From Eledone cirrhosa (lineage: Eukaryota), in assembly GCA_964016885.1 (NCBI GenBank), contig OZ024740.1, forward strand, positions 417,260,001-417,324,000: DNA of 64,000 bases, written 5' to 3'. Positions 18,001 to 63,816 of the stretch are shown piece after piece (positions within the stretch are counted from its first letter, which is position 1; every line of letters begins with the position of its first letter). Made by a program: the position numbers and the translations under genes. Under the pieces are notes generated by a model. That model was not told the DNA's origin, ran no database searches, and saw nothing but the letters and a program-made list of their open reading frames with translations.

Positions 18001-19897
18001 GTAATGGATATTCTGCCCTATTTTTGTTGACATTCAGTAGTAATGGATATTCTGCCCTATTATTGACATTCCATATTAATGGAGATTATGTCCTATTGTT
18101 GTTGATATTCAGTGGTAATGGAGATTGTATCCTATTGTTGTTGACATTCAGTAAGTAATGGAGATTGTCTCCTATTATTGTTGGCATTCAGTAGTAATGG
18201 AGATTGTGTCCTATTGTTGTTGACATTCAGTAGTAATGGAGATTCTGTCCTATTATTGTTGACATTCAATAGTAATGGAGATTCTGTCCTATTGTTGTTA
18301 ACATTTAGTAGTAATGAAGATTTTGTCCTACTGTTGTTGACATTCAGTAATAATGGATATTCTGTCCTATTGTTGTTAACATTCAGTAGTAATAGAGATT
18401 CTGTCCTATTGTTGTTGACATTCAGTAGTAATGAAGATTGTGTCCTATTGTTGTTGACATTCAGTAGTAATGGAGATTCTGTTTTATTATTGACATTTCG
18501 TAGTAATGGAGATTCTGTCCTATTGTTGTTGACATTCAGTAGTAATGGAGATTCTGTCCTATTATTGTTGACATTCAGTAATAATGGATATTCTGTCCTA
18601 TTGTTGTTGACATTCAGTAGTAATGGAGATTCTGTCCTATTGTTGTTGACATTCAGTAGTAATGAAGATTGTGTCCTATTGTTGTTGACATTCAGTAGTA
18701 ATGGAGATTCTGTCCTATTGTTGTTGACATTCAGTAGTAATGGAGATTTTTCCTATTGTTATTGACATTCAGTAGTAATGGAGATTGTCCTATTGTTGTT
18801 GACATTCAGTAGTAATGGAGATTGTATCCTATTGTTGTTGACATTCAGTAGTAATGGAGATTATGTCCTATTGTTGTTGACATTCAGTAGTAATAGAGAT
18901 TCTGTTCTATTGTTGTTGACATTCAGTAGTAAAAGAGATTCTGTCCGATTATTGTTGAAATTCAGTAGTAATGAAGATTGTGTCCTATTGTTGTTGACAT
19001 TCAGTCGTAATGGAGATTCTGTCCTATTGCTGTTGACATTCAGTAGTAATGGAGATTCTGTCCTATTGTTGTTGACATTCAGTAGTAATAGAGATTCTGT
19101 CCGATTATTGTTGACATTCAGTAGTAATGAAGATTGTGTCCTACTGTTGTTGACATTTAGTCTTAATGGAGATTCTGTCCTATTATTGTTGACATTCAGT
19201 AGTAATGGAGATGCTGTCCTATTGTTGTTGACATTCAGTAGTAATGGAGATTCTGTCCTATTATTGACATTTAGTAGTAATGGAGATTCTCTCCTATTGT
19301 TGTTGACATTCAGTAGTAATGGAGATTGTGTCCTATTATTGTTGACATTCAGTAGTAATGGAGATTGTCCTATTGTTCTTGACATTCAGTAGTAATGAAG
19401 ATTGTGTCCTATTGTTGTTGACATTCAGTAGTAATGGAGATTATGTCCTATTGTTGTTGACATTCAGTAGTAATGAAGATTCTGTCCTATTGTTGTTGAC
19501 ATTCAGTAGTAATGAAGATTCTGTCCTATTGTTGTTGACATTCAGTAGTAATGGAGATTCTGTCCTATTGTTGTTGACATTCAGTAGTAATGGAGATTTT
19601 GTCCTATTGTTGTTGACATTCAGTAGTAATGGAGATTATGTCCTATTGTTGTTGACATTCAGTAGTAATGGAGATTGTATCCTATTGTTGTTGACATTCT
19701 GTAGTAATGGAGATTGTGTCCTATTATTGTTGACATTCAGTAGTAATGGAGATTGTGTCCTATTGTTGTTGACATTCAGTAGTAATAGAGATTCTGTCCT
19801 ATTGTTGTTGACATTCAGTAGTAATAGAGATTCTGTCCTATTGTTATTGACATTCAGTAGTAATGGAGATTCTGTCCTATCGTTGCTGACATTCAAA
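1..19897. repeat. Minisatellite array A, 39-bp unit (36-bp variants), ~500 copies, runs off the left edge of the window
   Basis: Consensus TTGACATTCAGTAGTAATGGAGATTCTGTCCTATTGTTG repeated continuously; 36-bp variants lose one TTG; occasional 1-2 bp indels break the ORFs; array ends at ...gacattcaaatag near 19900. Confidence 0.98.
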
Positions 19898-20021
19898 TAG
19901 TAAAGACCTTAATTTTTAATGTGGTGCTGCCACAGTGGTATTTGTACTTTTTAGTAATGTCCTGCTGGTGTGGTTTCAAGTGGTACAGGATGTTAAGAGT
20001 TAAGATGTTTCATCATAATTT

Positions 20022-27000: not shown

Positions 27001-30000
27001 GACAGTGGTCAGTTGTCGTCATTTGGAGGTGGTGACAGGGATGACAGTGGTCAGTTGTCGTCATTTGGAGGTGGTGACAGGGATGACAGTGGTCAGTTGT
27101 CATTTGGAGGTGGTGACAGGGATGACAGTGGTCAGTTGTCGTCATTTGGAGGTGGTGACAGGGATGACAGGGGTCAGTTGTCGTCATTTGGAGGTGGTGA
27201 CAGGGATGAGTGGACAGTTGAGGTCATTTGGAGGTGGTGACAGGGATGACAGTGGTCAGTTGTCATCATTTGGAGGTGGTGACAGGGATGACAGTGGTCA
27301 GTTGTCGTCATTTGGAGGTGGTGACAGGGATGACAGTGGTCAGTTGTCGTCATTTGGAGGTGGTGACAGGGATGACAGTGGTCAGTTGTCATTTGGAGGT
27401 GGTGACAGGGATGACAGTGGTCAGTTGTCGTCATTTGGAGGTGGTGACAGGGATGACAGTGGTCAGTTGTCGTCATTTGGAGGTGGTGACAGGGATGACA
27501 GGGGTCAGTTGTCGTCATTTGGAGGTGGTGACAGGGATGAGTGGTCAGTTGAGGTCATTTGGAGGTGGTGACAGGGATGACAGTGGTCAGTTGTCATCAT
27601 TTGGAGGTGGTGACAGGGATGACAGTGGTCAGTTGTCATTTGGAGGTGGTGACAGGGATGACAGTGGTCAGTTGTCATCATTTGGAGGTGGTGACAGGGA
27701 TGACAGTGGTCAGTTGTCGTCATTTGGAGGTGGTGACAGGGATGAGTGGTCAGTTGTCATCATTTGGAGGTGGTGACAGGGATGACAGTGGTCAGTTGTC
27801 GTCATTTGGAGGTGGTGACAGGGATGACAGTGGTCAGTTGTCGTCATTTGGAGGTGGTGACAGGGATGACAGTGGTCAGTTGAGGTCGTTTGGAGGTGGT
27901 GACGGATGAGTGGTCAGTTGTCGTCATTTGGAGGTGGTGACAGGGATGACAGTGGTCAGTTGTCATTTGGAGGTGGTGACAGGGATGACAGTGGTCAGTT
28001 GTCATTTGGAGGTGGTGACAGGGATGACAGTGGTCAGTTGAGGTCATTTGGAGGTGGTGACAGGGATGACAGTGGTCAGTTGTCGTCATTTGGAGGTGAT
28101 GACAGGGATGAGTGGTCAGTTGAGGTCATTTGGAGGTGGTGACGGATGACAGTGGTCAGTTGAGGTCATTTGGAGGTGGTGACGGATGACAGTGGTCAGT
28201 TGTCGTCATTTGGAGGTGGTGACAGGGATGACAGTGGTCAGTTGAGGTCATTTGGAGGTGGTGACAGGGATGACAGTGGTCAGTTGTCGTCATTTGGAGG
28301 TGGTGACAGGGATAAGTGGTCAGTTGAGGTCATTTGGAGGTGGTGACGGATGACAGTGGTCAGTTGAGGTCATTTGGAGGTGGTGACGGATGACAGTGGT
28401 CAGTTGTCATTTGGAGGTGGTGACAGGGATGACAGTGGTCAGTTGAGGTCATTTGGAGGTGGTGACAGGGATGACAGTGGTCAGTTGAGGTCATTTGGAG
28501 GTGGTGACGGATGACAGTGGTCGGGTTGTCGTCATTTGGAGGTGGTGACAGGGATGACAGTGGTCAGTTGTCGTCATTTGGAGGTGGTGACAGGGATGAC
28601 AGTGGTCAGTTGTCGTCATTTGGAGGTGGTGACAGGGATGACAGTGGTCAGTTGTCATTTGGAGGTGGTGACAGGGATGACAGTGGTCAGTTGTCGTCAT
28701 TTGGAGGTGGTGACAGGGATGACAGTGGTCAGTTGTCGTCATTTGGAGGTGGTGACAGGGATGACAGTCGTCAGTTGTCATTTGGAGGTGGTGACAGGGA
28801 TGACAGTGGTCAGTTGAGGTCATTTGGAGGTGGTGACAGGGATGACAGTGGTCAGTTGAGGTCATTTGGAGGTGGTGACAGGGATGACAGTGGTCAGTTG
28901 TCGTCATTTGGAGGTGGTGACAGGGATGACAGTGGTCAGTTGTCGTCATTTGGAGGTGGTGACAGGGATGACAGTGGTCAGTTGTCATTTGGAGGTGGTG
29001 ACAGGGATGACAGTGGTCAGTTGTCGTCATTTGGAGGTGGTGACAGGGATGACAGTGGTCAGTTGTCATTTGGAGGTGGTGACAGGAATGACAGTGGTCA
29101 GTTGTCATTTGGAGGTGGTGACAGTGATGACAGTGGTCAGTTGTCATTTGGAGGTGGTGACAGGGATGACAGTGGTCAGTTGTCGTCATTTGGAGGTGGT
29201 GACAGGGATGACAGTGGTCAGTTGTCGTCATTTGGAGGTGGTGACAGGGATGACAGTGGTCAGTTGAGGTCATTTGGAGGTGGTGACAGGGATGGCAGTG
29301 GTCAGTTGTCGTCATCTGGAGGTGGTGACAGGGATGACAGTGGTCAGTTGTCATTTGGAGGTGGTGACAGGGATGACAGTGGTCAGTTGTCGTCATTTGG
29401 AGGTGGTGACAGGGATGACAGTGGTCAGTTGTCATTTGGAGGTGGTGACAGGGAACACAGTGGTCAGTTGTCGTCATTTGGAGGTGGTGACAGGGATGAC
29501 AGTGGTCAGTTGTCATTTGGAGGTGGTGACAGGGATGACAGTGGTCAGTTGTCATTTGGAGGTGGTGACAGGGATGACAGTGGTCAGTTGTCGTCATTTG
29601 GAGGTGGTGACAGGGATGACAGGGGTCAGTTGTCGTCATTTGGAGGTGGTGACAGGGATGAGTGGTCAGTTGAGGTCATTTGGAGGTGGTGACAGGGATG
29701 ACAGTGGTCAGTTGTCATCATTTGGAGGTGGTGACAGGGATGACAGTGGTCAGTTGTCGTCATTTGGAGGTGGTGACAGGGATGACAGTGGTCAGTTGTC
29801 GTCATTTGGAGGTGGTGACAGGGATGACAGTGGTCAGTTGTCATTTGGAGGTGGTGACAGGGATGACAGTGGTCAGTTGTCGTCATTTGGAGGTGGTGAC
29901 AGGGGTCAGTTGTCGTCATTTGGAGGTGGTGACAGGGATGAGTGGTCAGTTGAGGTCATTTGGAGGTGGTGACAGGGATGACAGTGGTCAGTTGTCATCA

Positions 30001-33000
30001 TTTGGAGGTGGTGACAGGGATGACAGTGGTCAGTTGTCGTCATTTGGAGGTGGTGACAGGGATGACAGTGGTCAGTTGTCGTCATTTGGAGGTGGTGACA
30101 GGGATGACAGTGGTCAGTTGAGGTCATTTGGAGGTGGTGACGGATGAGTGGTCAGTTGTCGTCATTTGGAGGTGGTGACAGGGATGACAGTGGTCAGTTG
30201 AGGCCATTTGGAGGTGGTGACAGGGATGACAGTGGTCAGTTGTCGTCATTTGGAGGTGGTGACAGGGATGAGTGGTCAGTTGAGGTCATTTGGAGGTGGT
30301 GACGGATGACAGTGGTCAGTTGAGGTCATTTGGAGGTGGTGACGGATGACAGTGGTCAGTTGTCGTCATTTGGAGGTGGTGACAGGGATGACAGTGGTCA
30401 GTTGTCGTCATTTGGAGGTGGTGACAGGGATGACAGTGGTCAGTTGTCATTTGGAGGTGGTGACAGGGATGACAGTGGTCAGTTGTCGTCATTTGGAGGT
30501 GGTGACAGGGATGACAGTGGTCAGTTGTCGTCATTTGGAGGTGGTGACAGGGATGACAGTGGTCAGTTGTCATTTGGAGGTGGTGACAGGGATGACAGTG
30601 GTCAGTTGTCATTTGGAGGTGGTGACAGGGATGACAGTGGTCAGTTGTCGTCATTTGGAGGTGGTGACAGGGATGACAGTGGTCAGTTGTCGTCATTTGG
30701 AGGTGGTGACAGGGATGACAGTGGTCAGTTGTCGTCATTTGGAGGTGGTGACAGGGATGACAGTGGTCAGTTGTCGTCATTTGGAGGTGGTGACAGGGAT
30801 GACAGTGGTCAGTTGTCATTTGGAGGTGGTGACAGGGATGACAGTGGTCAGTTGTCGTCATTTGGAGGTGGTGACAGGGATGACAGTGGTCAATTGTCAT
30901 TTGGAGGTGGTGACAGGGATGAGAGTGGTCAGTTGTCATTTGGAGGTGGTGACAGGGATGACAGTGGTCAGTTGTCGTCATTTGGAGGTGGTGACAAGGA
31001 TGACAGTGGTCAGTTGTCATTTGGAGGTGGTGACAGGGATGAGTGGTCAGTTGAGGTCATTTGGAGGTGGTGATAGGGATGACAGTGGTCAATTGTCATC
31101 ATTTGGAGGTGGTGACAGGGATGACAGTGGTCAGTTGTCGTCATTTGGAGGTGGTGACAGGGATGACAGTGGTCAGTTGTCGTCATTTGGAGGTGGTGAC
31201 AGGGATGACAGTGGTCAGTTGTCGTCATTTGGAGGTGGTGACAGGGATGACCGTGGTCAGTTGTCATCATTTGGAGGTGGTGACAGGGATGACAGTGGTC
31301 AGTTGTCATTTGGAGGTGGTGACAGGGATGACAGTGGTCAGTTGTCGTCATTTGGAGGTGGTGACAGGGATGACAGGGGTCAGTTGTCGTCATTTGGAGG
31401 TGGTGACAGGGATGAGTGGTCAGTTGAGGTCATTTGGAGGTGGTGATAGGGATGACAGTGGTCAATTGTCATCATTTGGAGGTGGTGACAGGGATGAGTG
31501 GTCAGTTGAGGTCATTTGGAGGTGGTGACAGGGATGACAGTGGTCAGTTGTCATTATTTGGAGGTGGTGACAGGGATGACAGTGGTCAGTTGTCGTCATT
31601 TGGAGGTGGTGACAGGGATGACCGTGGTCAGTTGTCATCATTTGGAGGTGGTGACAGGGATGACAGTGGTCAGTTGTCGTCATTTGGAGGTGGTGACAGG
31701 GATGACAGTGGTCAGTTGTCGTCATTTGGAGGTGGTGACAGGGATGACAGTGGTCAGTTGTCGTCATTTGGAGGTGGTGACAGGGATGACAGTGGTCAGT
31801 TGAGGTCATTTGGAGGTGGTGACGGATGAGTGGTCAGTTGTCGTCATTTGGAGGTGGTGACAGGGATGACAGTGGTCAGTTGTCATTTGGAGGTGGTGAC
31901 AGGGATGACAGTGGTCAGTTGAGGTCATTTGGAGGTGGTGACAGGGATGACAGTGGTCAGTTGTCGTCATTTGGAGGTGGTGACAGGGATGAGTGGTCAG
32001 TTGAGGTCATTTGGAGGTGGTGACGGATGACAGTGGTCAGTTGAGGTCATTTGGAGGTGGTGACGGATGACAGTGGTCAGTTGTCGTCATTTGGAGGTGG
32101 TGACAGGGATGACAGTGGTCAGTTGAGGTCATTTGGAGGTGGTGACAGGGATGACAGTGGTCAGTTGTCGTCATTTGGAGGTGGTGACAGGGATGAGTGG
32201 TCAGTTGAGGTCATTTGGAGGTGGTGACGGATGACAGTGGTCAGTTGAGGTCATTTGGAGGTGGTGACGGATGACAGTGGTCAGTTGTCATTTGGAGGTG
32301 GTGACAGGGATGACAGTGGTCAGTTGAGGTCATTTGGAGGTGGTGACGGATGACAGTGGTCAGTTGTCGTCATTTGGAGGTGGTGACAGGGATGACAGTG
32401 GTCAGTTGTCGTCATTTGGAGGTGGTGACAGGGATGACAGTGGTCAGTTGTCGTCATTTGGAGGTGGTGACAGGGATGACAGTGGTCAGTTGAGGTCATT
32501 TGGAGGTGGTGACGGATGAGTGGTCAGTTGTCGTCATTTGGAGGTGGTGACAGGGATGACAGTGGTCAGTTGTCATTTGGAGGTGGTGACAGGGATGACA
32601 GTGGTCAGTTGTCATTTGGAGGTGGTGACAGGGATGACAGTGGTCAGTTGAGGTCATTTGGAGGTGGTGACAGGGATGACAGTGGTCAGTTGTCGTCATT
32701 TGGAGGTGGTGACAGGGATGAGTGGTCAGTTGAGGTCATTTGGAGGTGGTGACGGATGACAGTGGTCAGTTGAGGTCATTTGGAGGTGGTGACGGATGAC
32801 AGTGGTCAGTTGAGGTCATTTGGAGGTGGTGACGGATGACAGTGGTCAGTTGTCGTCATTTGGAGGTGGTGACAGGGATGACAGTGGTCAGTTGAGGTCA
32901 TTTGGAGGTGGTGACAGGGATGACAGTGGTCAGTTGTCGTCATTTGGAGGTGGTGACAGGGATGAGTGGTCAGTTGAGGTCATTTGGAGGTGGTGACGGA

Positions 33001-33458
33001 TGACAGTGGTCAGTTGAGGTCATTTGGAGGTGGTGACGGATGACAGTGGTCAGTTGTCATTTGGAGGTGGTGACAGTGGTCAGTTGAGGTCATTTGGAGG
33101 TGGTGACAGGGATGACAGTGGTCAGTTGGAGGTGGTGACGGATGACAGTGGTCAGTTGAGGTCATTTGGAGGTGGTGACAGTGGTCAGTTGTGGTGATTT
33201 GGAGGTGGTGACTGGTGACAGTGGTCAGTTGTGGTGATTTGGAGGTGGTGACTGGTGACAGTGGTCAGTTGTGGTCATTTGGAGGTGGTGATAGTGGTCA
33301 GTTGTGGTGATTTGGAGGTGGTGATAGTGGTCAGTTGTGGTGATTTGGAGGTGGTGACTGGTGACAGTGGTCAGTTGTGGTCATTTGGAGGTGGTGATAG
33401 GGATGACAGTGGTCAGTTGTGGTGATTTGGAGGTGGTGATAGGGATGACAGTGGTCAG
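21057..33458. repeat. Minisatellite array B, 42/39-bp unit, ~300 copies
   Basis: Consensus GTGGTCAGTTGTCGTCATTTGGAGGTGGTGACAGGGATGACA; 39-bp variant lacks GTC; 40-bp variants (gatgagtgg, gacggatg) break the frames; degenerates at 33060-33458. Confidence 0.98.
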
Positions 33459-34789: not shown

Positions 34790-36174
<1,385 letters not shown>

Positions 36175-36192
36175 CTGATTGATAAATAATTG

Positions 36193-36374
36193 TTTCTACT
36201 TTAGGCACAAGGCCAGCAATTACCCAGTGCATTACTGATACTTTATTTTATCGACCCCGTAAGGATGAAAGGCAAAGTCAACCTCGGCGGGATTTGAACT
36301 CAGATCGTAAATGGACGTAACTATGCTGGAAAGCATGGCGTCCGACCCTCTACCGATACTGCCAATCCACCGCC
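36193..36374 (-). mobile_element. tRNA-derived SINE with a Meta-domain-like central region
   Basis: Minus strand reads ggcggtggattggcagtatcggtag (A box) .. gagttcaaatccc (B box) .. gactttgcctttcatccttacggggtcgataaaataaagta .. gcctaaagtagaaa. The domain name is from recall, not a search. Confidence 0.8.
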
Positions 36375-36529
36375 AATCCATTATATTTATATCTTTAACA
36401 AAATGGTCTCATAACTAATAAACAAACAAAACTGGTGTTTTTTCTGTATCTTCCCAATTTAAAACATTTAAACTGATTGATAAATAATGGAATTCTTTAA
36501 GATAAAATATTATAACTGATTGATAAATA

Positions 36530-38885
36530 ATGGAATTCTTTAAGATCTCTTCATCTCTAAAAGATATACCTTTACCTAAGAATAAGGACTATCTTAAACA
36601 ACTCATTGAGAAATCTGACTCCTTTATACGAAGACTTAAATGGCATGCCTTCCATTTCGATAGAAAATCAGATGAAAAAAACAAATAAATCCAGTTACAA
36701 CTTCGATATGATCTTCAAATCCAAGAAAATTCCACCTAACAACTATTAATGGAATTTGAAAATGAAATAATATCAATTATACAAAACATCAAATTCAGGA
36801 AAAACCAATTTGCAGGCCAGGAATACCTTGAAGGTCTTAAGAATAATATAGAAAATCTTGAAAAAACTGAGAAAATCCTCGTAAAATCTGACAAAACTAA
36901 CAATCTATACGGAATGCAAAAAGACGAATACAATAACCTTATATTGAAAGAACTAAGGAAAACCTACAAAATAACAACCAATGAAGACCTGGAAATGGTA
37001 AATAGAGAAGCTTCTGAAATAATTCATAAATTAGGCATCGAAAATAGGACCGAACCCTTTATACCAAGAAAACCAAAAATTAACCTGAAAGACCACAAAA
37101 GAAACTTTGAAATAGAACTACCAGTTAGACTTATAGCACCATCTAAATCTCTTAGGCATAGTTAGTAAACATATATTAGATAGAATCATACCGCAACTTA
37201 AAGAAATATCTTATCTAAAACTATGGAACGGTACTAACGAAGTTATAGATTGGTTCAATAACATAAAATTTAAAAAATAACAAAAAATTAATTCAATTGG
37301 ATATTGCAAGTTACTACTCCTCTATCACTCCTAATTTACTTAATAAAGCCCTTATCTATGCATCTAAACATACAGATTTATCTAGTGAAGAAATGCATAT
37401 CATTTTAACCGCACGTAAAACTTTAATTGAATTCAACAGCCATCTTTGGACTAGAGCTGATAGAGAAACTAATTTCGAGATCACCATGGGGGTCATCAGA
37501 CTCGGTGCAAATAACGGATCTTGTGGGGCTATTTATTAATAATACACTACATAGAAAAATACCGGAGATGACCGGTGGTTTATATCGTGATGATATGCTG
37601 CTTTTAATAGAAAATCATAATAATTGTGAAATTAATAGAAAAAGAAAATCAATACAATTTTTCAATAGCTACAATCTTAAGTTAGAAATAGAGAATAACT
37701 ATAAAATTAACTTTTTAGATGTAACATTAAACCTTAACACAGGGCTCTACTATCCATTCCATAAAATTAATGAGAATTTAAACTATGTAAGCTTCAACTC
37801 TAATCATCCTAGATCTATTAAGAACACTATTGTAAATTCTATACAACAACGTATTTCTCGAATCTCCGCTAATAAAAACATTTTTGACGATAAGGCAGAA
37901 TATTATAATGAAGCTTTAAACAGAGCAGGCTATATAAATAAGATTAAATACATCGACAACAGTGATAAGGCAAATAACCCTACTATTAATTATAATTACA
38001 ATAAAAAACCTAACTTAAACTCTAAAACTAACAGAAGAAATAGAACTAGAAATATAATTTGGTATTCACCTCCTTTCTCATTAAGCGTTAAAACACCTTT
38101 AGCTAAGCTATTCTTTAAAGCTCTAGATAAATGTTTTCCTAAAGCCCATAGATACCACTCAATCTTTAACAGACATACAATAAAACTATCTTACTCTACT
38201 ACTATGAACTTAACACAAAATATAAATAGAATCAATAATAGAAATTTAAACCATAACCAAAATAGCAGTAATATCTCTAGCAATATCCAACTTAATAATA
38301 CTGTTCCGAATAACATGAACTCCGCTAAATGTAATGGTAGAATTAAATCAAACTGTCCTTTAAAAAATAAGTGCTTAGATAAGGATGTGGTCTATAAATG
38401 CACAGTCAAAACCAATGATAATATATTTAACTATGTAGGCTCTACTTCTACAGACTTTAAAACTCGTTTTAATAATCACAAATGTTCGTTTAATAATATT
38501 GGTAAAAAATCTTCAACTTCTCTATCAAACCTGATATGGAACTTAAAATCCAAAAATATGGACTCCTATACGAGCGAGACACGGTCACCCAACCAACCTT
38601 GCCTCAAGTGGCACAACTCCCGTCTAACCCATGCTAGCGTGGAAGATGGACGTTAACCGATGATGTTGATGATGATGATGATGATGATGGACTATTCTTT
38701 AACTTGGGAAATAATTTCAAAAGCACCTGCCTACCGAAACAGCTTTAGCTAGATTTTGCAAATTGTGTGTTGAGGAAATTTGCTTCATACTTAAATGTAA
38801 GAACTCTATTAACATACGTATGAATTTATTTAGTTCTTGTAAACATCGCCTAAATTCAACGTTTAAAACTATATATAAATTATAA
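36530..38885 (+). pseudogene. Penelope-like reverse transcriptase + GIY-YIG endonuclease, disrupted by frameshifts and an insertion
   Basis: N-terminus MEFFKISSSLKDIPLP..FIRRLKWHAF; VKSDKTNNLY; LKDHK..PVRLI; motif A LDIASYYSSI; motif B FEITMG/SSDS; catalytic GLYRDD; INFLDVTL; SNHP; RNIIWYSPPFS; CPL..CL; GIY-YIG VVYKC..YVGST..FKTRFNNHK; after the insertion DYSLTWEII..CKLCVEE..CKHR, stop at 38883-38885. Confidence 0.95.
38565..38686 (+). mobile_element. 5'-truncated RTE-type retroposon tail inserted in the PLE endonuclease
   Basis: aacccatgctagcgtggaagatggacgttaa plus (GAT)n tail; 7-bp TSD ATGGACT at 38558-38564 and 38687-38693. Confidence 0.9.
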
Positions 38886-38891
38886 TTACAC

Positions 38892-40228
38892 TTATAATAT
38901 TTCTACTTATTTCCATATATTGTTTGCTATAATTTCACTTATTAAATTTTCTTAACTTATATACATATATGATCCTAAATTTTAAAATTTTTATATTTAA
39001 TTTTAACTTTAAATTTAATATTTTTTAAGGTTTTTTAATTCTTTATTTTTTATTTTTTACTTCTTAAATCTTTATTTTTCATTTTTCATTTTTATTCTTT
39101 ATTTTTTTACTTCTAAAATATTTCATATATTTTAAAAATTACTTATTTTTTAGAAATTACTTATTTTTAAAAAAATTATTTTTTTTTTTTTTGAAATCTA
39201 CTTATCTCTTATAAAATAATTTTTAATAAGTTTTAAAATATTTTTAAAAAGTTTTTTTTTTATTTTTTAAAGATTTTTTAAAGTATTTAAAAATTTATTT
39301 ATTTTTTTTTTATATTTTCTGAAATTTAAAAAAAAAATTTCCAGAATTCTTTAATATTTTTTAATATCTTTTATTAGATTTATAACCAATAATATATTTA
39401 TATCTTTAACAAAATGGTCTCATAATAACTAATAAACAAACAAAACTGGTGTTTTTTTCCATATCTTCCCAATTTAAAACATTTAAAATATATAAATATT
39501 CTTAACTCAGTTAACTTATTTACTTACACTAAATATAAACCAATATCCCTCATAACTCATTAAAACAATTATCTATAACAAGATATACCCATCTATCCAT
39601 TCATGTATCTATTTTTCTATCTATTGATTCTTCTATTTATCTATTTTCTATCTATTTATTTTTCAATATATTTTTCTATCTAATTTTCTATATATATTTA
39701 TTTTTCTATATATATCTATTTTTTCTATCTACTTATAATAATAAATATTATATTATATTAGAAAAGAATTCTAATAACAAAATAATAGTAAATATACGTA
39801 CCATTAGTAGATATAAACTTAAAACTTATTTACGTTACATGAGTTCTATTCATCCTCTTGTAAATTTCTTTTCTCTATCTATCTCGTAATATTAATATTT
39901 TTTCTCTCTCTCTTTCTTCCCTATCTTTCCCCAGCATCATTTAAATAAACGGTTGTTTTTTCAATTATTTACATATTCATTTGCATATTTACACATTCAT
40001 TTGCATATTCACACATAACTTTGAATAATCCCTAATGTTTCCACTATCCAGTGAATTTCCGACTGATAAGGTATGATTTTCATGGGTACGTCTTTATTTA
40101 TGAAACAAACTTTGTATTTTATCTGATGAAAGCGCACCAAGGTTTGCTTGGTTGCCCTTGAAATATATATAATAAAATAAATATGGTTTTATAAATAAAG
40201 TTTCCATTTATTTAATATCATGGAATAT
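38892..40228 (+). repeat. Right arm: PLE 3' UTR/pLTR
   Basis: Starts 7 bp after the ORF stop; reverse complement of the left arm; contains the hammerhead motif. Confidence 0.93.
40115..40179 (+). ncRNA. Type I hammerhead ribozyme (PLE-associated)
   Basis: Stem I TATTTTAT/ATAAAATA; CTGATGA 40123-40129; stem II aag-c-gca-ccaag..cttgg-t-tgc-c-ctt; GAAA 40160-40163; short palindromic stem III ATATATAT; predicted cleavage after A40171. Confidence 0.88.
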
Positions 40229-44000: not shown

Positions 44001-45254
44001 GTATAAGTGGTTCCAGATACACAATAACATGTGGTGGAGGTGAGACAGGAGTTTCTGACAGTAATGTGTACCAAAGTTACCTTGGTATAGGTGGTTCCAG
44101 ATACACAATAACATGTGGTGGAGGTGAGACAGGAGTTTCTGACAGTAATGTGTACCAAAGTTACCTTGGTATAGGTGGTTCCAGATACACAATAACATGT
44201 GGTGGAGGTGAGACAGGAGTTTCTGACAGTAATGTGTACCAAAGTTACCTTGGTATAGGTGGTTCCAGATACACAATAACATGTGGTGGAGGTGAGACAG
44301 GAGTTTCTGACAGTAATGTGTACCAAAGTTACCTTGGTATAGGTGGTTCCAGATACACAATAACATGTGGTGGAGGTGAGACAGGAGTTTCTGACAGTAA
44401 TGTGTGCCAAAGTTACCTTGGTATAGGTGGTTCCAGATACACAATAACATGTGGTGGAGGTGAGACAGGAGTTTCTGACAGTAATGTGTACCAAAGTTAC
44501 CTTGGTATAGGTGGTTCCAGATACACAATAACATGTGGTGGAGGTGAGACAGGAGTTTCTGACAGTAATGTGTACCAAAGTTACCTTGGTATAGGTGGTT
44601 CCAGATACACAATAACATGTGGTGGAGGTGAGACAGGAGTTTCTGACAGTAATGTGTACCAAAGTTACCTTGGTATAGGTGGTTCCAGATACACAATAAC
44701 ATGTGGTGGAGGTGAGACAGGAGTTTCTGACAGTAATGTGTACCAAAGTTACCTTGGTATAGGTGGTTCCAGATACACAATAACATGTGGTGGAGGTGAG
44801 ACAGGAGTTTCTGACAGTAATGTGTACCAAAGTTACCTTGGTATAGGTGGTTCCAGATACACAATAACATGTGGTGGAGGTGAGACAGGAGTTTCTGACA
44901 GTAATGTGTACCAAAGTTACCTTGGTATAGGTGGTTCCAGATACACAATAACATGTGGTGGAGGTGAGACAGGAGTTTCTGACAGTAATGTGTGCCAAAG
45001 TTACCTTGGTATAGGTGGTTCCAGATACACAATAACATGTGGTGGAGGTGAGACAGGAGTTTCTGACAGTAATGTGTGCCAAAGTTACCTTGGTATAGGT
45101 GGTTCCAGATACACAATAACATGTGGTGGAGGTGAGACAGGAGTTTCTGACAGTAATGTGTACCAAAGTTACCTTGGTATAGGTGGTTCCAGATACACAA
45201 TAACATGTGGTGGAGGTGAGACAGGAGTTTCTGACAGTAATGTGTACCAAAGTT
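44001..45254. repeat. 84-bp tandem repeat, ~15 near-identical copies
   Basis: Unit gtataggtggttccagatacacaataacatgtggtggaggtgagacaggagtttctgacagtaatgtgtaccaaagttaccttg; essentially one A/G variant site. Confidence 0.98.
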
Positions 45255-45613: not shown

Positions 45614-46488
45614 ATAACTAGAGATGGTACCAGGGGCGTAACTAGGGATGTAACTAAGGATTTAACTAAGGATGTAACAAAGGATGTAACCAGAGGTGTA
45701 ACTAGAGCTGTAACTAGGGATATAACTAGGGATATAACTAGGGATGTAACTAGGGATGTAACCAGAGGTGTAACTAGGGATGTAACTAGAGATGTAACTA
45801 GGGATGTAACCAGAGGTGTAACTAGGGATGTAACTAGAGATGTAACCAGAGGTTTAACTCGAGCTGTAACCAGAGGTGTAACTAAAGATGTAACTAGAGA
45901 TGTAACCAGAGGTGTGACTAGGGATGTAACCAGAGGTGTAACTAGGGATGTAACTAGAGATGTAACCAGAGGTTTAACTAGAGATGTAACCAGAGGTGTA
46001 ACTAGAGCTGTAACCAGAGATGTAACTAGGGATGTAACTAGGGATGTAACCAGAGGTGTAACTAGAGCTGTAACTAGAGATGTAACTAGGGATGTAACCA
46101 GAGATGTAACTAGGGATGTAACCAGAGGTGTAACTAGAGCTGTAACTATAGATGTAACTAGGGATGTGACCAGATATGTAACTAGGGATGTAACTAATGA
46201 TGTAACTAGAGATGTAACCAGAGGTTTAACTCGAGCTGTAACCAGAGGTGTAACTAAATATGTAACTAGAGATGTAACCAGAGGTGTGACTAGGGATGTA
46301 ACCAGAGGTGTAACTAGAGCTGTAACCAGAGATGTAACTAGGGATGTAACTAGAGGTGTAACTAGAGCTGCAACTAGGGATGTAACTAGGGATGTAACCA
46401 GAGGTGTAACTAAGGATGTAACCAGAGATGTAACTAGGGATGTAACTAGAGCTGTAACTAGGGATGTAACCAGAGGTGTAACTAAGGA
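45614..46488. repeat. 12-bp minisatellite (GTAACTAGGGAT / GTAACCAGAGGT / GTAACTAGAGCT), ~72 units
   Basis: Direct reading; unit pairs reproduce the hAT TIR sequence CAGAGGTGTAACTAGGG. Confidence 0.97.
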
Positions 46489-47120: not shown

Positions 47121-47561
47121 ATATGGTATATAACTGGTTTAATGATCCAGCCACCATAGTGCTTCTCACTCATGATAATCAAAGACAGATCATACATCTG
47201 AAGAAGTTTCTTTCTTTACTCTCCGACAATATCTGACTTTAATGGAAAGTGATTCTAGTCCATGTGGCGCCTGTGGCATGTGCAATGATTTCCACACCCT
47301 ACTTACACCTCTGGTAGTTAGAAAGAAACAACAAATTGTTGAAATGATAAAAGGGTAATTATAGATGAAACAGAGTAGAAAAGTGAAACCAAACACTAAA
47401 CATTATATGCCTCACTGTGAAAATAAAGAAGTGTAAATACACTTTCTGTTGATCTTTTTCTACACAGAAAAATGCAACAAACTGCTTTCATGTGTTTCAC
47501 AGATTTTTGTTCAGTCATCAGAAAACAACTACCTTTAACTGAGATAGCCAATCTAATTTTA

Positions 47562-49975: not shown

Positions 49976-50354
49976 ATTACGCATGAAGCAAATTATTCAT
50001 TACAGAAATTACCGAATACGTTTTTACATTAAATATTGATTTACGAACGTTTCATGCCTTATTGGGACTTATCAAAATCAGTTATAAGTAAATATCTCAT
50101 AAGTCTCACCAAACAGTCAGAGAACTGTTTACATTTTAAAAAGATGCCATAATGTTATGCCGTCTTTTTAAATGTAAACAAATTCTCTGACTGTTTGGTA
50201 TAGAGCCGTTTGGTGAGACTTATGAGATATTTACTTATAAATAACTGATTTTGATAAGTCCCAATAAGGGATGAAATGTTCGTAAATCAATATTTAATTA
50301 AAAATATATTTGACAATTACTTTAATGAATAATTTACTTCATGCGTAATTATTA
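49971..50354. repeat. ~380-bp imperfect palindrome (fold-back)
   Basis: taataattacgcatgaag.. pairs with ..cttcatgcgtaattatta; arms continue to a centre at ccataatgttatgc (~50147-50160); right arm has two small insertions. Confidence 0.95.
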
Positions 50355-50589: not shown

Positions 50590-51295
50590 ATCATCTAACT
50601 TATTCATGCTCATCTCACAATATATCCTTACTTACATTACTTCTGTGTTTTTTTTAATAATACATATCAACATTTTCTTTCCATCGCACATATTATTAAA
50701 CCCTTAAAATTATTCTTAATACATATTAACATTTTCTTTCCATCGCACATATTATTAAACCCTTAAATATTATTCTTAATACATATTAACAATTTCTTTT
50801 CATCGCACATATTATTAAACCCTTCAATATACAAACCTTAACTTTACATTACTTTTCTCTTCGTTAATTTTCAAATTCTTTTAATTTATACATTATCTTC
50901 AAACGGTTTTTCAACCTCTCTATGTAAAACAATATATTTTTCTCAGTTATAAAAGCTATCTCTCTCTCTCTATCAGCCATCTCTCCTCCTATCTCATCCT
51001 TCCTCATTATACTCCTCCCCCTCCACTTTTTACTCTCATCTCCTCCTCTTTTTCATCCTTTCCAACCCCCCCCCCCCCCTCAAACAAAATTTTTTCCCCA
51101 ATATCACACATCAATCTAAAACTACTTTTCATATGTTGATTTAAAACTGCACTATCCACAAGTGTTTTTAACCTTCATATCATGTCCTCCTATTTTATCT
51201 GATGAAAACACAAATGTTATTGCATGATGATATTTGTTTTTGAAATGCGCATAATAAAATACATGGAACTCATTTAACCATCTTTTGATCTTATA
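50590..51295 (+). mobile_element. Solo PLE-type 3' UTR/pLTR fragment with hammerhead, copy 1
   Basis: Colinear with 62557-63470; pyrimidine-rich; internal ~60-bp repeat x3 (~50660-50830); ends in (TA)n. Confidence 0.75.
51191..51261 (+). ncRNA. Type I hammerhead ribozyme
   Basis: TATTTTAT CTGATGA [16-bp stem II with one mismatch, loop GCAT] GAAA TGCGCA T A ATAAAATA; palindromic stem III ATGCGCAT. Confidence 0.9.
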
Positions 51296-52054: not shown

Positions 52055-52927
52055 CAGGGTGCAGACGACATCTGTTGCAATTTTCAACTGCTAATTTTAT
52101 GCAAAATTTTTTTTACATCTGTTGTCACTCTTGTCTTCATAAAAACAGTGACTATATTTGCATTATTTATTTTCAGAATAATTGATTATGAATAATTTTG
52201 AACCTCCAAATTTGTGGAAGAGACACGGAGTTCTTCTTGGAATCCGCGCCGGGAGGACAAATAAGGAAATTTCAGACTTTCTCAGCGTCAGCAGGAGAAT
52301 GGTGTCTCATCCAAAGACGTGACCAGAGTCATGCAGACAAAGTTTCCAGCGACAACATTGGTCTTAGGTGTCGTCATGCCACCTCACTTCTTCCTGAGGG
52401 CCTCAAGCTGAACACCGATGGCTACATCCGCGTTCTGAGCGAGGTAGTAAAGCCCTGGATTGACCAGGTAGCTGCAGGTAGGTCGTACGTGTGGCAGCAA
52501 GACTCAGCGCCCTGCCATACCAGCCGAAAGACCCAAGCCTGGCTGTCAGAGAACTTCGTTGACCACACTTCACCTGACATCTGGCCTCCCAGCTCACCTA
52601 ACTGCAACCCCCTCGACTTCTTTGTGTGGGGCGCAGTGGAACGAGACACCAACAGATTTAGCTGCAATACGAAAGACGATCTGAAGGCCAGGATCACAAG
52701 TGCCTTTAGAGGCCTAAGTTGGGGGACAGTGACGAAGACCTGTAGCCGGTTCCGAGGCGGCCTTGAGGCCGTCATCAAAGCCAATGGCGGGTTTATCGAG
52801 TGAGATCGAAAGAATAAGTCATGAAGACAAACTGATCCAAGTTTGATAAATATATCTTAAAAAATAAAACTACTGTGTTATTTTTTCCTAGACAGTAATC
52901 TTGCGAACAGATATCGTCCGCACCCTG
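52055..52927 (+). mobile_element. Tc1/mariner superfamily DD37D (maT-type) transposon, internally deleted
   Basis: TA|CAGGGTGCAGACGACATCTGTT .. AACAGATATCGTCCGCACCCTG|TA; 873 bp. Confidence 0.92.
52198..52803 (+). pseudogene. DD37D transposase C-terminal fragment
   Basis: WQQDSAPCH..WPPSSPNCNPLDFFVWG with 37 residues between the 2nd and 3rd catalytic Asp; ends LEAVIKANGGFIE; N-terminal DNA-binding region absent. Confidence 0.9.
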
Positions 52928-52947
52928 TATGTATATATATATATATA

Positions 52948-53145
52948 TAGTAATAATAATAAATTTGAAGACTAAAATCCAAAGAGGGCTCGATAAGGAT
53001 AAATATATATCTATATATAAGAACCGTAGAACAAATATTTATTAAAATAACAGATTAAAGTTTAAGCAAAGAATCGCTGCTTTCACCCTTAACGGGTGAA
53101 AGCAGCGATTCTTTGCTTAAACTTTAATGTTATTTTAATAAATAT
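52948..53145. repeat. Short (TA)n-flanked element ending in a ~110-bp palindrome
   Basis: ttaaagtttaagcaaagaatcgctgctttcaccc-ttaac-gggtgaaagcagcgattctttgcttaaactttaa; related copies at 54385-54440, 54518-54835, 56011-56720 and 57882-57934. Confidence 0.9.
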
Positions 53146-53159
53146 ATATATATATATAC

Positions 53160-54230
53160 TAAAAGTATGTACAAGTAAACTTCTGTACCTGACTTTTGTG
53201 GATCTGTAGAAAACCTTTGTAATCTGTTGGGCACTTAGGAAGCTAAGTGTAAATGAAAGGCTCCTGAGGGCCATGCAAAACATATCAGGTCTAAGTTGAC
53301 AATGAATACTGTTATGAATGTGAATGCAGATCGTTCAATTTATCATTGCTCTCCAGGCCATAATGGAAAAGTTTAAGACTAGTATCACATGGGAACTCCT
53401 GCATGCTGATAATCTAGTCCTTAAAGATGAATCTGTAGAAAAATTAGAGACAAAATTCCAGACATGGAGGCTAAAACCTACAATTGAAAAGCCTAGAAGT
53501 AGACTTAGCCAAGACTAAAATACTGATAAGTAAGAAATAAAACAGGAATTTTATATCGTGAGAGATGTGGCCTTGTTCAATGTTGAAAAGAGGTGGGCTG
53601 ATATTACTTAATGCACAAAAGATGTAGTCGGACTAAAGGTAGGTTAACGGAGAAGATAAATTCTGTATCTGACAGGTGTACAAGAGAAGAAAGCACTAAC
53701 AACACGCATGATAGCCAGAATAAAAATGGACTGGAAGAAGTTTAGAGAGCTAGTACATTACATCTGCTGACAATAAAGGGCTTCTCAGTCAGAGTGAAGG
53801 GTAGACTGTATCATGCCTGTGTGTGAACTGCAAAGTTATAGGACAGTAATATATGGACCTCAATTGCAGAAGACCTGTGAAGGTTAGAAAAAAAATGAAT
53901 TGAGCACACTCCGATGGATGTGTAATACCGGTGAGCACGAACGCTGTAATATAAGCTAAAAGAAGCACTTTACAGGAGGGATTTGTGATCAAGTGTGCAA
54001 GTGAGAATACTAAGATGGTACAGACATGTGACGCATATGAAAGATGACAGCTGTATAAAAAAATGCAGAGAAATCTAAATGGATGGGACCTATGAAAGAG
54101 GTAGACCTAAGAAGACATTGGATGAAGTAGTGAAGACTGACCTTAGAACAGAGAAAGAGCTGAATCTCACAACAGAGATGACAAAGGACCACAAGGATTG
54201 GTGACATGCTGTACTGAAGAAGACATGCCT
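53160..54230 (+). pseudogene. Highly decayed RTE LINE RT and C-terminal fragments
   Basis: LYLTFVDL*KTF; FIIALQAIMEKFKTSITWELLHADNLVL (YADD-equivalent); GRPKKTLDEVVKTDL. Confidence 0.8.
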
Positions 54231-54432
54231 GCTATACATACATATCATCATCATCGTTTAACATCCATCTTCCACGCTAGCATGGGTTTAGACGGGAATT
54301 ATCCCACTTGAGGCAAGATTGGTCGTCTCGCTCGTATAGGACTGTCTGGCAGGTTTTCTACGGCTGGATGCCCTTCATATATATATAGTAATAATAATAA
54401 ATGTGAACACTAAACTTTAATCTGTTATTTTA

Positions 54433-54522
<90 letters not shown>

Positions 54523-54884
54523 ATAATAAATGTGAAGACTAAAATCTAAAGATGGTACAATAAGGATTTTATATAAATATATATATATATACCAAGGGCG
54601 GTGCCCCAGCATGGCCTCAGCCGGATGGCTGGAACAGGTAAAAGAGTATATATATAAATATACACACATAAAAAAACCTGTACACCAAATATTTATTATA
54701 AGTACAGAATAAAGTTTAAGCAAAGAATCGCTGCTTTCACCCTTAACGGGATCTACTGAAACTCAAAAGATCCCGTAAAAGGGTGAAAGCAGCGATTCTT
54801 TGCTTAAACTTTATTCTGTACATATAATAAATATATATCGTCATCATCATCATTGTTTAATGCCCATCATCCATGCTAGCATGG

Positions 54885-54922
<38 letters not shown>

Positions 54923-55072
54923 TCATCACTGTTTAATGTCCATTTTTCCATGCTAGCATGGGTTAGACGAGTTGTCCTGTTGTGAGATCAGATGACCGTG
55001 TCTTGCTCATACAGAACGATCTTATGGCTTAATGGCCTTCAAGACGCCAACCACTTTACAGTGTGGACTGGG

Positions 55073-55164
55073 TGCTGCTGCTACTACTACTGCTACTACT
55101 ACCACCACTACTACTACTAATACTAATGCTACTGCTGCTGCTGCTGCTACTGTTACTACTATTA

Positions 55165-55195
<31 letters not shown>

Positions 55196-55252
55196 CACTA
55201 CTACTACTGCTGCTGCTGCTGCTACTGTTACTACTATTATTACTACTACTAT

Positions 55253-55321
<69 letters not shown>
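55073..55321. repeat. (CTA/CTG)n trinucleotide repeat
   Basis: Direct reading. Confidence 0.95.
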
Positions 55322-56455
55322 AAATGGAAAAAAATAAACCACATTCCTCATCAGTAATCAATAAATTAAAACCTATTAACAGCAGACACAGGTTGTATTA
55401 AACTGATTGGTTATTGTAAATATATGAGTCTGTGCAGGTAGCCACCCCTCAGACCCCATATATCTGTGTAAATAAGTTCAGTCCACCACCACTACCACCA
55501 CCACAGTCTATTTCATTATTCTCTTGAAAAAGGATTTAACACCCAAAATATCATGAAATCTATATTACTAAAACAGAGAATGTCTGTTTGTCTGTTTGTC
55601 TGTCCAATCACTAAAACTCGAGAACCACCCAACCGAGTTTTTTCAAACTTTACACATATAATACTTATGGCCCCGTGCATGTTTTGAGCAAATTTTCAAT
55701 GCCCTAGGCATTGCATTAGGCGATTTAGCGATCTCTGTCTATAATTCTTAGTCTTTCCCTTTTTAGATAGATACATAGCTATGACGCCGCACCCTTATAA
55801 TATTTGTCTGCATGCCTGACTGTCTGCATTACGTCATTATGACGTGATCTGTGTGTGTATATATGTATATATAGTGTGTGTATGTGTATATATATATATA
55901 TTCTTATGTCAGGGAACGTCTTCATGAACCAAAGTATCGTCTTCCTGTTTTCCTTCGGTTGCAACGTTTTTTGAAATATTTACATCTGCGTTCACAGATT
56001 GATTTTTTTTAGTTTCAGAAGATCCCGTTAAGGTTGAAAGCAGCAATTCTTTACTTAAACTTTAATATGTTATTTTAATATATATATATATATATATTTT
56101 TGTATACACAAAAACAAAATATAAATCAAGGCCAACGATTACATACGATGCATACACAAGAACAAAATATAAACAAATAAGGCCGGTGATTACATAATCA
56201 CATGCATCACTGACATATATTTTTGCATACACAAAAGAAATATATAAACAAACAAGGCCAACAATTGCATACAATTACATCAGTTAGTCTTAGTGTACTT
56301 CATACTGTTTTTAGGTAGAAGATCCCGTTAAGGGTGAAAGCAGCGATTCTTTGCTTAAACTTTAAGTCAACGGTTCGGAAATCACATGCATCACTGACGA
56401 GTTTACTCCTTACTCTACCAGTTAGTCTTAGTGTACTTCATACTGCTATTAGATC

Positions 56456-56635
56456 ATGCCTCGAAGGAAGAGATACTCCATTGGCCGAAATACTGCGATA
56501 GTGGCAAGAGAAAGAACAAGGCGGGCAAACGAATCGTCAGTGGAATCTGCTATTCAACTATCACAAGATGCAGAACATACTGCCACCAGAAGAGCACTTG
56601 AAACATACAAACAACGAACCAATCGCCAAACGGCT
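56456..56635 (+). pseudogene. Probable Helitron RepHel N-terminal remnant
   Basis: MPRRKRYSIGRNT..RRANES..RRALETYKQR..R: basic/charged start resembling animal RepHel N-termini (from recall); lies inside the Helitron and is truncated by the repeated hammerhead-like motif. Confidence 0.5.
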
Positions 56636-56649
56636 GATTTTTTTATTTT

Positions 56650-56700
56650 AGTTTCAGAAGATCCCGTTAATGGTGAAAGCAGCGATTCTTTGCTTAAACT
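56650..56700 (+). ncRNA. Hammerhead-like motif with variant core CAGAAGA (most complete plus-strand copy)
   Basis: AGTTT CAGAAGA T CC(C) GTTAA (T)GG T GAAA GCAG cgattct TTGC T T AAACT: stems I, II and III sit at hammerhead positions; activity unknown. Confidence 0.55.
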
Positions 56701-56954
56701 TTAATCTGTTATTTTAATATATATATATAATTATATATTCGTGTACAGATATTTTTGCATATACAATAACAAAATATAAACAAAAGTATTTATTTTGCGA
56801 TAAAGTATTGATTTTTTTCGCACGGAAAAAAACTCCTGGTAATCTACAACAAATTTTTTTTATAAGCACAAAATGTAGACACCATCCCGAGGCCGAGGTA
56901 TTCCGTACTTCTCTGTACTGTTATATATATACATATATATAATTATATATTCTC

Positions 56955-57820: not shown

Positions 57821-58087
57821 TTCGTGTACAGATATTTTTGCATACACAATAACAAAATATAAGCAAACGTATTTATTTCAGGAGGCTCGATAAGGATAAA
57901 TATATATCAAATATATAAGAACCCTAGAGCAAATCCCGAGCAATGCCGGGCCATTCTGCTAGTATAAACTAAAAGTAAACTATTTTGTTTTGTTTTATTT
58001 CACTCACATTTTCACTTCTTTATTTCTAACTTGTTTTATTTTTGCTTTCCTAAAACAATTTTAACTATCTATCAATATATATATATA

Positions 58088-62448: not shown

Positions 62449-63816
<1,368 letters not shown>

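What the first reader, a model, noticed from the sequence alone, without database searches (positions are those of the whole stretch)
53035..56720. Seven-copy motif with full hammerhead topology but a non-canonical CAGAAGA core
Seen: consensus AGTTT CAGAAGA T CCC GTTAA GGG T GAAA GCAG cgattct TTGC T T AAACT. Stem I (AGTTT/AAACT), stem II (CCC/GGG, U.U at its base) and stem III (AGCAG/TTGCT) flank core positions exactly as in a type I hammerhead with a CUU triplet, but U4 is A. Copies: 56011-56061 and 56650-56700 (CAGAAGA), 54713-54763 minus (CAGTAGA, all stems intact), 54764-54810 (CAAAAGA), 56316-56361 (5' clipped) and two half copies at ~53059-53123. No single copy equals the consensus. Searches requiring CUGANGA would miss it. 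Inference: a variant ribozyme family marking a small (TA)n-associated mobile element; unlike the other hammerheads here it has a stable stem III and might cleave as a monomer.
Basis: partly seen in the sequence, partly recalled or inferred. Interest (0 to 1): 0.75.

Follow-up and report, generated by a model that had tools for sequence, protein, structure and literature searches.

The report
Capped retrotransposon hammerhead with U4A core
These seven motifs are broken-off ends of a jumping gene with over 26,000 such ends in this genome; its hammerhead-shaped RNA has an A where working hammerheads have a U, which likely weakens self-cutting (untested), and the copy ends suggest the element's RNA starts at the motif's first letter and is likely copied uncut.

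Summary
The motif is real, at the stated places, and A4 is fixed: 26,582 A, 133 T, 187 C/G genome-wide; T4 is at background level (A6>T control: 100). It is not a small stand-alone element but the end repeat (pLTR) of an autonomous 3,259-nt Hydra-clade Penelope-like retrotransposon with a 709-aa RT/GIY-YIG ORF; 13 intact ORFs carry 29 of 29 A4 motifs. Relatives have the same fold but never A4 (0 of 45 hits). Older subfamilies change only loops and N7, so the fold looks selected. Among 100 copies, 27 5' ends fall at the motif's 5' edge (3.3 expected), often after an extra G, the mark of a capped RNA start; no excess at the cut site. Best reading: a crippled hammerhead at the capped 5' end of the mRNA, copied uncut. 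Cleavage is untested; the predicted best fold is a competing one. The scan already noted this same family twice elsewhere in this genome. New variant of a known kind.

The parts
56650..56700 (+). Hammerhead-shaped pLTR motif, CAGAAGA core (A4 at 56656; predicted cut between 56695 and 56696; inferred transcription start at 56650); one stem II mismatch
   Evidence: model hit E 0.14
56011..56061 (+). Motif copy with three substitutions (stem II and stem III broken), inside a 190-nt 5'-truncated element end at 55901-56090
54654..54763 (-). Element end (motif 54713-54763, A6>U, plus tail); left arm of a head-to-head pair that starts at the first base of stem I
54763..54838 (+). Right arm of the head-to-head pair; older subfamily (6-nt loop II), G5>A, 5' strand of stem I missing
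56317..56365 (+). Motif clipped at C3, passenger inside a second repeat
   Evidence: same context in L007
52951..53096 (-). Half motif plus long (about +112) tail; left arm of a palindrome in (TA)n
   Evidence: 97% to the element end
53086..53150 (+). Half motif plus short (+25) tail; right arm of the palindrome
54411..54440 (+).
54517..54583 (-). Fragment of the long tail of the same element
57884..57934 (-). Further tail fragment, outside the finding's range
55557..56941 (+). A second repeat (Helitron-like by recalled end pattern, untested) that carries three of the motif copies; the same composite occurs in L007, L008, L058, L068, L078

Best explanation
The motif is the end-repeat hammerhead of an autonomous Hydra-clade Penelope-like retrotransposon, with A fixed at core position 4; it likely sits at the very start of the element's capped RNA and likely cuts weakly or not at all, so the RNA is likely copied uncut. 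Shown: the parent element (3,259-nt unit, 709-aa RT/GIY-YIG ORF starting 203 nt after the first base of stem I, motif repeated 926 nt after the stop codon), fixation of A4 in young and old subfamilies, a pile-up of copy 5' ends at the motif's 5' edge with an extra G, and copy 3' ends at two sites. Inferred steps: (1) transcription starts at the A of AGUUU (initiator-like TTAGTT, TCAGTT in older copies), so the fold occupies nt 1-51 of the mRNA and a cut would remove the cap with 46 nt; (2) U4A removes the U-turn contact and extends a competing UUUCA/UGAAA helix, which keeps most RNA intact and capped; (3) the element's RT starts internally near nt 75 or nt 162, runs through the uncut motif to the cap, adds a C opposite it, and then integrates into (TA)n, folds back (head-to-head pairs) or jumps to another template (partial tandems); (4) the fold is still selected, most likely as a handle for the element's own protein or as a slow, protein-assisted ribozyme.
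For: Parent: L046, L256-L275; 13 distinct intact 709-aa ORFs, 97-99% alike, 29 of 29 motifs A4; model resembles retron, group II intron and telomerase RT folds. Fixation: 26,582 A, 133 T, 187 C/G; A6>T control 100; 12 of 12 sampled loci from the looser CTGA search are inversion junctions; the 30 sampled T4 loci with stem I context lie on mixed subfamily backgrounds; older subfamilies 53 A of 55 and 60 A of 65; 30 old copies picked by the tail alone give 12 A and 3 T, the 3 T all at inversion junctions. Selection on the fold: old vs young majority differ at 5 of 13 loop/N7 positions and 0 of 38 core and stem positions; five loop II variants with unchanged core and stems; G15.2-C16.2 is a double change from the C-G pair of 24 of 24 relatives. 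RNA start: 27 of 100 tail-picked copies end 37-50 nt upstream of the cut (3.3 expected), 9 scored exactly at the first base of stem I (0.23 expected; one of these, L308, is a misalignment), 3 at the cut (2.1 expected); 2,606 copies have a non-T base before AGTTT, G in 53 of the first 100 listed; 18 of 21 untemplated cases among 30 loci are G (17 on my reading); an extra G is read as the cap mark in L1 (PMC11702581, passage). 3' ends: 52 of 100 at tail +20-29 and 29 at +110-119, as in the two internal RT starts of Anolis Poseidon, where hammerhead-dead mutants still insert in vitro (PMC11167929, parts 1-2). U4: all CUGA single mutants low (PMC9901934, passages); U4 contacts the A6-N7 phosphate and natural U4C lowers activity (PMC3088659, passages).
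Against: No cleavage data exist. Fold conservation over several subfamilies is also what an active ribozyme would show, and 19 of the 38 invariant positions were fixed by the search pattern (0 changes in the other 19 against 7 of 58 in flanks is not significant alone; one search is the unbiased sample and is small). Absence of ends at the cut does not discriminate: a canonical CUGA family in the same genome also shows none (1 of 78), so uncut templates may be the rule whether or not the ribozyme works. That control family shows no pile-up at its stem I. Head-to-head partners are not independent events, and the 100 copies come from the first 28 Mb of one contig. The extra G could be terminal-transferase activity at any RNA end. 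The Anolis hammerhead cuts only with protein, so naked-RNA folding predictions may mislead.
Confidence: 0.6

Rival explanations
1. Active variant ribozyme: A4 is tolerated, and the closed, non-palindromic stem III lets the motif cut as a monomer or with help from the element's protein, removing the cap and so throttling translation or processing tandem transcripts.
For: Every other core base and all three stems are kept across subfamilies; compensatory G15.2-C16.2; three-stem fold about 1000-fold more populated than in two canonical relatives; natural U4C keeps enough activity in vivo (PMC3088659); the oldest subfamily has A4 with U7, which could pair (recalled geometry, untested).
Against: A4 in 0 of 45 hits in related elements and 0 of 26 rows of Craig 2021 File S2; CUGA single mutants low and not rescued by a second change; competing minimum-energy fold; young subfamilies have A7, so no A4-U7 covariation.
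Confidence: 0.25
2. Neutral relic: the ribozyme died at U4A and the sequence persists only because it overlaps DNA-level promoter elements just downstream of the start site, or because too little time has passed.
For: Hammerhead cutting is dispensable in vitro; Penelope has an internal promoter (PMC2377424, passages); flank divergence between old and young is only 7 of 58 positions; no compensatory change is seen within the family.
Against: The changes seen fall in loop II, loop III and N7, including length changes of loop II, a pattern that follows RNA structure rather than a linear DNA motif.
Confidence: 0.1
3. A4 was selected because C3-A4-G5 makes a 3' splice acceptor behind a pyrimidine tract, used in read-through transcripts.
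For: U4A creates TTTCAG after a T-rich tract (sequence); in D. virilis Penelope an intron ends at helix I (PMC4209133, part 2).
Against: No copy boundary at 37-41 nt upstream of the cut joins to upstream element sequence in sense; no GT..AG joint among those listed; the pile-up includes the upstream AG and an extra G, which fits a start, not an acceptor.
Confidence: 0.05

Closest known systems
Hydra clade of C-terminal-EN Penelope-like elements and their pLTR hammerheads (Craig et al. 2021, PMC8557442; section 11, find passages, supplement part 2 and searches seen)
   Same: RWK-like (RWR), DKT, CxCX5C, CxxC and CxH motifs; single ORF; (TA)n targets; partial tandems, 5' inversions, optional tail; hammerhead layout stem I - core - U - stem II - U - GAAA as in Hydra-1_aJap.
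   Different: Core CAGA instead of CUGA; G15.2-C16.2 (CUU triplet) instead of C-G; closed 7-nt non-palindromic loop III instead of a short palindrome; unit 3,259 nt with a 926-nt 3' region (published units mostly under 3 kb). Not Hydra-1_Obim, whose hammerhead and protein differ; two motif words had no relevant hit in that supplement.
PLE minimal and variant hammerheads (Cervera and de la Pena 2014, PMC4209133; parts 1-2 read)
   Same: Type I hammerhead in the pLTR, thousands of single copies from truncated elements, pairs on opposite strands, extra base after A9.
   Different: Their core variant is the compensatory U3-A8; no A4 in the text read. Long stem III is described for fungal and protist elements, not metazoan ones.
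Anolis Poseidon PAc (Frangieh et al. 2024, PMC11167929; parts 1-2 read)
   Same: Two internal RT start sites giving the tail; uncut RNA as template.
   Different: Canonical, protein-assisted core; different clade; ORF overlaps the hammerhead; no cap-G mapping reported in the parts read.
Natural core-variant hammerheads (Perreault et al. 2011, PMC3088659; passages)
   Same: Single core change (U4C, A6C) and U10.1-U11.1 with reduced activity.
   Different: Rare single cases in viroids, phages and bacteria; U4A not found in the text searched; here the change is fixed in more than 26,000 copies.

Membership tests
Penelope-like element (EN+) | Single ORF with RT and C-terminal GIY-YIG endonuclease | tested here: met
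   709-aa ORF with YRDD, IVYKC and YIGLT; RT-like fold incl. TERT hits; Pfam finds nothing on this ORF itself but GIY-YIG on homologue P0095
Penelope-like element (EN+) | pLTR partial tandems, 5' truncation, inverted 5' copy, optional tail | tested here: met
   L046, L256-L275; 3' ends at two sites
Hydra clade | RWK motif and DKT in place of DKG | tested here: met
   RLRWR; SDKT in L046 and L048; DKT is mutated in some copies (absent in the one scanned; SNKT in L256)
Hydra clade | CxCX5C linker; CxxC and CxH around conserved E and N | tested here: met
   CNCRNRADC, CDLCAAE, NKKSEAISACKH against section 11 of PMC8557442
Hydra clade | Insertion into (TA)n | tested here: met
   flanks
Hydra clade | Placement inside the clade on an RT tree | not tested
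   no tree built; 36-52% identity to 23 unnamed homologues
Hydra clade | Canonical hammerhead in the pLTR | tested here: not met
   position and fold match, core has A4
Type I hammerhead ribozyme | Three stems around the core, open at stem I | tested here: met
   5, 3 and 5 pairs; relatives covary strongly (score 0.849, 0 of 500 shuffles); not the predicted minimum-energy fold
Type I hammerhead ribozyme | C3, G5, A6, G8, A9, G12, A13, A14, A15.1-U16.1, H17 | tested here: met
Type I hammerhead ribozyme | U4 | tested here: not met
   A in 26,582 of 26,902
Type I hammerhead ribozyme | Site-specific self-cleavage after NUH | not testable with these tools
   no assay; no RNA run listed
Retrozyme or other small non-autonomous hammerhead element | Short non-coding unit with its own ends, repeated as such | tested here: not met
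   copies are nested 5' truncations of a 3.26-kb coding unit

The most novel reading that the evidence does not exclude
A natural hammerhead that still cuts with adenine at position 4, as a monomer or with help from its own RT, and sits at nt 1-51 of a capped retrotransposon mRNA, where it acts as a built-in decapping switch; this would widen the hammerhead core consensus and give PLE hammerheads a concrete job.
Probability: 0.2. Interest if true: 0.8.

Novelty: new variant of a known kind. Interest (0 to 1): 0.47.

Why it matters
Why Penelope-like elements keep hammerheads is open: the ribozymes are weak, dispensable in one in vitro system, and have been suggested to be parasites of the element. 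Here a highly successful family (about 30,000 ends, recent intact ORFs) fixed a change at a core base that all tested relatives keep, yet kept the fold, beside sister families with the normal core in the same genome. That is a ready-made comparison. The genomic copies also appear to record the capped RNA start at the first base of the ribozyme, which predicts that cutting would decap the mRNA.

Tried and rejected
Rfam scan of the window: no hammerhead family at E<=1, only simple-repeat miRNA hits. Pfam and PDB sequence searches of the ORF: nothing significant. 'Ordinary CUGA family with decayed copies': rejected. A closer sister family in the genome: searches with P0001 and P0003 listed hits with the identity, frame length and places of this family (intact ORFs checked); P0002 also returned two other Hydra-type families with CUGA cores. 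Expression: no RNA holder listed; contigs of four runs showed no listed change at position 4, but those of organisms B and C are low-depth and near-identical, so I do not count them as other species. Cut-site footprint: no excess in this family or in the canonical control, so uninformative. My first boundary script mis-scored homopolymer indels in the control and a local alignment bridged inversions; one search replaces both. Model R1 had stem III one column off and was not used. Initiator-like words near the core in 9 of 36 metagenome relatives vs 13 of 472 background windows: pattern chosen after the fact and several rows are one family, so only a hint. In one search the row labelled L135 used L140, a CpG-decayed copy. 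Literature: searches 'hammerhead+U4A', core-variant terms, 'CAGAUGA' and 'CAGAAGA' with hammerhead, 'octopus+Penelope+hammerhead' listed no natural U4A hammerhead (listings only). Lunse 2017, Nelson and Uhlenbeck 2008 and Ambros and Flores 1998 are not held, and the supplements of Cervera 2014, Perreault 2011 and Roberts 2023 were not read; an A4 variant or a measured U4A rate could be there.
Full report
Observation. Compared with the motif of an intact element, each carries its own damage: one stem II mismatch (56650-56700), three changes (56011-56061), core A6>U (54713-54763, minus), a missing stem I strand with G5>A (54764-54810), a clip at C3 (56316-56361) and two halves forming a palindrome (53059-53123). 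Rfam reports no hammerhead here. The window lies in a 3.0-Gb animal genome, in which a 32-nt pattern of the motif has 18,754 exact matches and the reversed control none.

Is A4 fixed? With one pattern and only position 4 varied, the genome has 26,582 A, 133 T and 187 C or G: 98.8% A. The same pattern with A6>T has 100 matches, so T4 is at the level of ordinary post-insertion mutation, and the 30 T4 loci sampled lie on several subfamily backgrounds. A looser search gave 562 CTGA matches against 18,621 CAGA; all 12 loci sampled from it are head-to-head junctions where the inverted copy supplies the T. Older subfamilies also have A4: 53 of 55 with a 6-nt loop II and 60 of 65 with U7. Of 30 old copies picked by their tail alone, 15 reach position 4: 12 have A, and the 3 with T are inversion junctions.

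The carrier. Extending upstream led to a 3,259-nt unit in partial tandem (L046). Among the ORF-bearing loci fetched, 13 distinct copies have an intact 709-aa ORF, 97-99% alike, and all 29 motifs in those loci have A4; in the 20 loci L256-L275 it is 43 of 43. The protein has RLRWR, DKT, YRDD, CxCX5C, a GIY-YIG pair and CxxC/CxH motifs, which are the Hydra-clade marks listed by Craig et al. 2021 (PMC8557442, section 11). Its model matches RT folds, telomerase among them; Pfam and PDB sequence searches were blank. No tree was built. The motif starts 203 nt before the ATG and recurs 926 nt after the stop. The window's copies are 5'-truncated and inverted ends of this element; three of them are passengers in another repeat.

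Is it a hammerhead by descent? Craig's File S2 lists 26 Hydra rows, all CUGA, 14 with the same U...U flanking stem II. In 77 metagenome loci of related ORFs, a descriptor free at position 4 found 45 sense hits in 37 loci: 44 U, 1 C, 0 A, and none in reversed sequence. These relatives covary strongly, and a model built from 24 of them, without this family, finds the A4 motifs of intact elements at E about 8e-4. Other Hydra-type families of the same genome keep CUGA. Besides A4, this family differs in G15.2-C16.2, a double change from the C-G of 24 of 24 relatives, and in a closed, non-palindromic loop III.

Is the fold still selected? Old and young majorities differ at 5 of 13 loop and N7 positions and at 0 of 38 core and stem positions. 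Half of those 38 were fixed by my pattern, and 0 of the other 19 against 7 of 58 in the flanks is not significant alone. The tail-picked sample is free of that bias and shows five loop II variants, two N7 states and two loop III states around unchanged core and stems. There is no compensatory change within the family. I take this as moderate evidence.

Would it cut? Untested. Published single mutants of CUGA have low activity and are not rescued by a second change (PMC9901934, passages); U4 contacts the A6-N7 phosphate, and natural U4C lowers activity but still allows viroid infection (PMC3088659, passages). In longer context the hammerhead fold falls below 0.1%.

What the copy ends say. I took the first 100 genomic matches to a 25-nt word just downstream of the cut site (29,755 in all) and mapped their ends. 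3' ends cluster near nt 75 (52 copies) and nt 162 (29 copies) counted from stem I, like the two internal RT starts that make the tail of Anolis Poseidon (PMC11167929). 5' ends are not enriched at the cut (3 vs 2.1 expected) but 27 fall 37-50 nt upstream (3.3 expected), 9 scored exactly at the first A of stem I (one misaligned; two further G-AGTTT copies were over-extended). Genome-wide 2,606 copies have a non-T base before that A, G in 53 of the first 100; among 30 such loci 21 are untemplated and 17-18 of these are G. In L1 an extra G at full-length 5' junctions is read as the copied cap (PMC11702581, passage). The site reads TTAGTT, or TCAGTT in old copies, an initiator-like word (recalled consensus). 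I infer that the capped RNA begins at stem I and that these cDNAs crossed the cut site uncut. Limits: paired copies are not independent; the sample is from one contig end; a canonical family shows no ends at its cut either (1 of 78) and no pile-up at its stem I, so this does not measure activity.

Mechanism. Most likely (0.6): a hammerhead weakened by U4A at nt 1-51 of the capped mRNA; RT starts internally, copies to the cap, then integrates in (TA)n, folds back through the TTC-A-GAA near-palindrome or jumps template; the fold is kept as a protein handle or slow ribozyme. Hammerhead-dead Poseidon RNA still inserts in vitro, which fits. Rivals: active variant (0.25), neutral relic under promoter constraint (0.1), splice acceptor (0.05).

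Novelty. The element type, its layout and its hammerheads are known. A fixed natural U4A core was not found in my searches, with the gaps named under Tried and rejected. The scan itself has noted this same family twice on other DNA of this genome (e1-10304421, e1-10330111) and the 'ends mark transcription and RT starts' idea in another genome (e1-9529720); I saw these after my own counts, and they are not independent support. Verdict: new variant of a known kind, interest 0.47.

Noticed in passing
window 36540-38850 (+), 40117-40177 (+), inverted copy about 34880-36400, further hammerhead copies 51193-51259 and 63368-63434: A second, decayed Hydra-type element (about 40% aa identity to the A4 family) with a canonical CUGAUGA hammerhead, long stem II and an AU palindrome as stem III.
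   Followed up: partly
window 47455-47527 (-) and 50036-50081 (-): Further hammerhead-like hits of model R2: a CUGAUGA core with a long stem III insert (E 0.009) and a possible U3-A8 core (E 0.05).
   Followed up: no
window 55557-56941: A repeat with a Helitron-like start (recalled pattern) that has captured this element's end and spread it; it holds a short frame beginning MPRRKRYSIGRN at about 56456. Three sampled T4 copies (L058, L068, L078) lie in this composite.
   Followed up: partly
L226-L255 (own genome): Two more intact Hydra-type families (714 and 719 aa) with canonical cores and very long stem II; one has 3,908 exact tail matches.
   Followed up: partly
window 1-19903, 21067-33458, 44001-45254, 45615-46484: Very long tandem arrays with periods 39, 42, 84 and 24/60 nt, all multiples of three and strongly strand-skewed; possibly giant repetitive coding exons.
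   Followed up: no
window 52500-52930: Fragment that reads by eye like the C-terminal end and terminal repeat of a Tc1/mariner-type transposon (recalled motif), directly before the first (TA)n run.
   Followed up: no
L206 1694 and L155 2046 (metagenome loci): Hammerheads with U3-A8 and with C4 near related ORFs.
   Followed up: no
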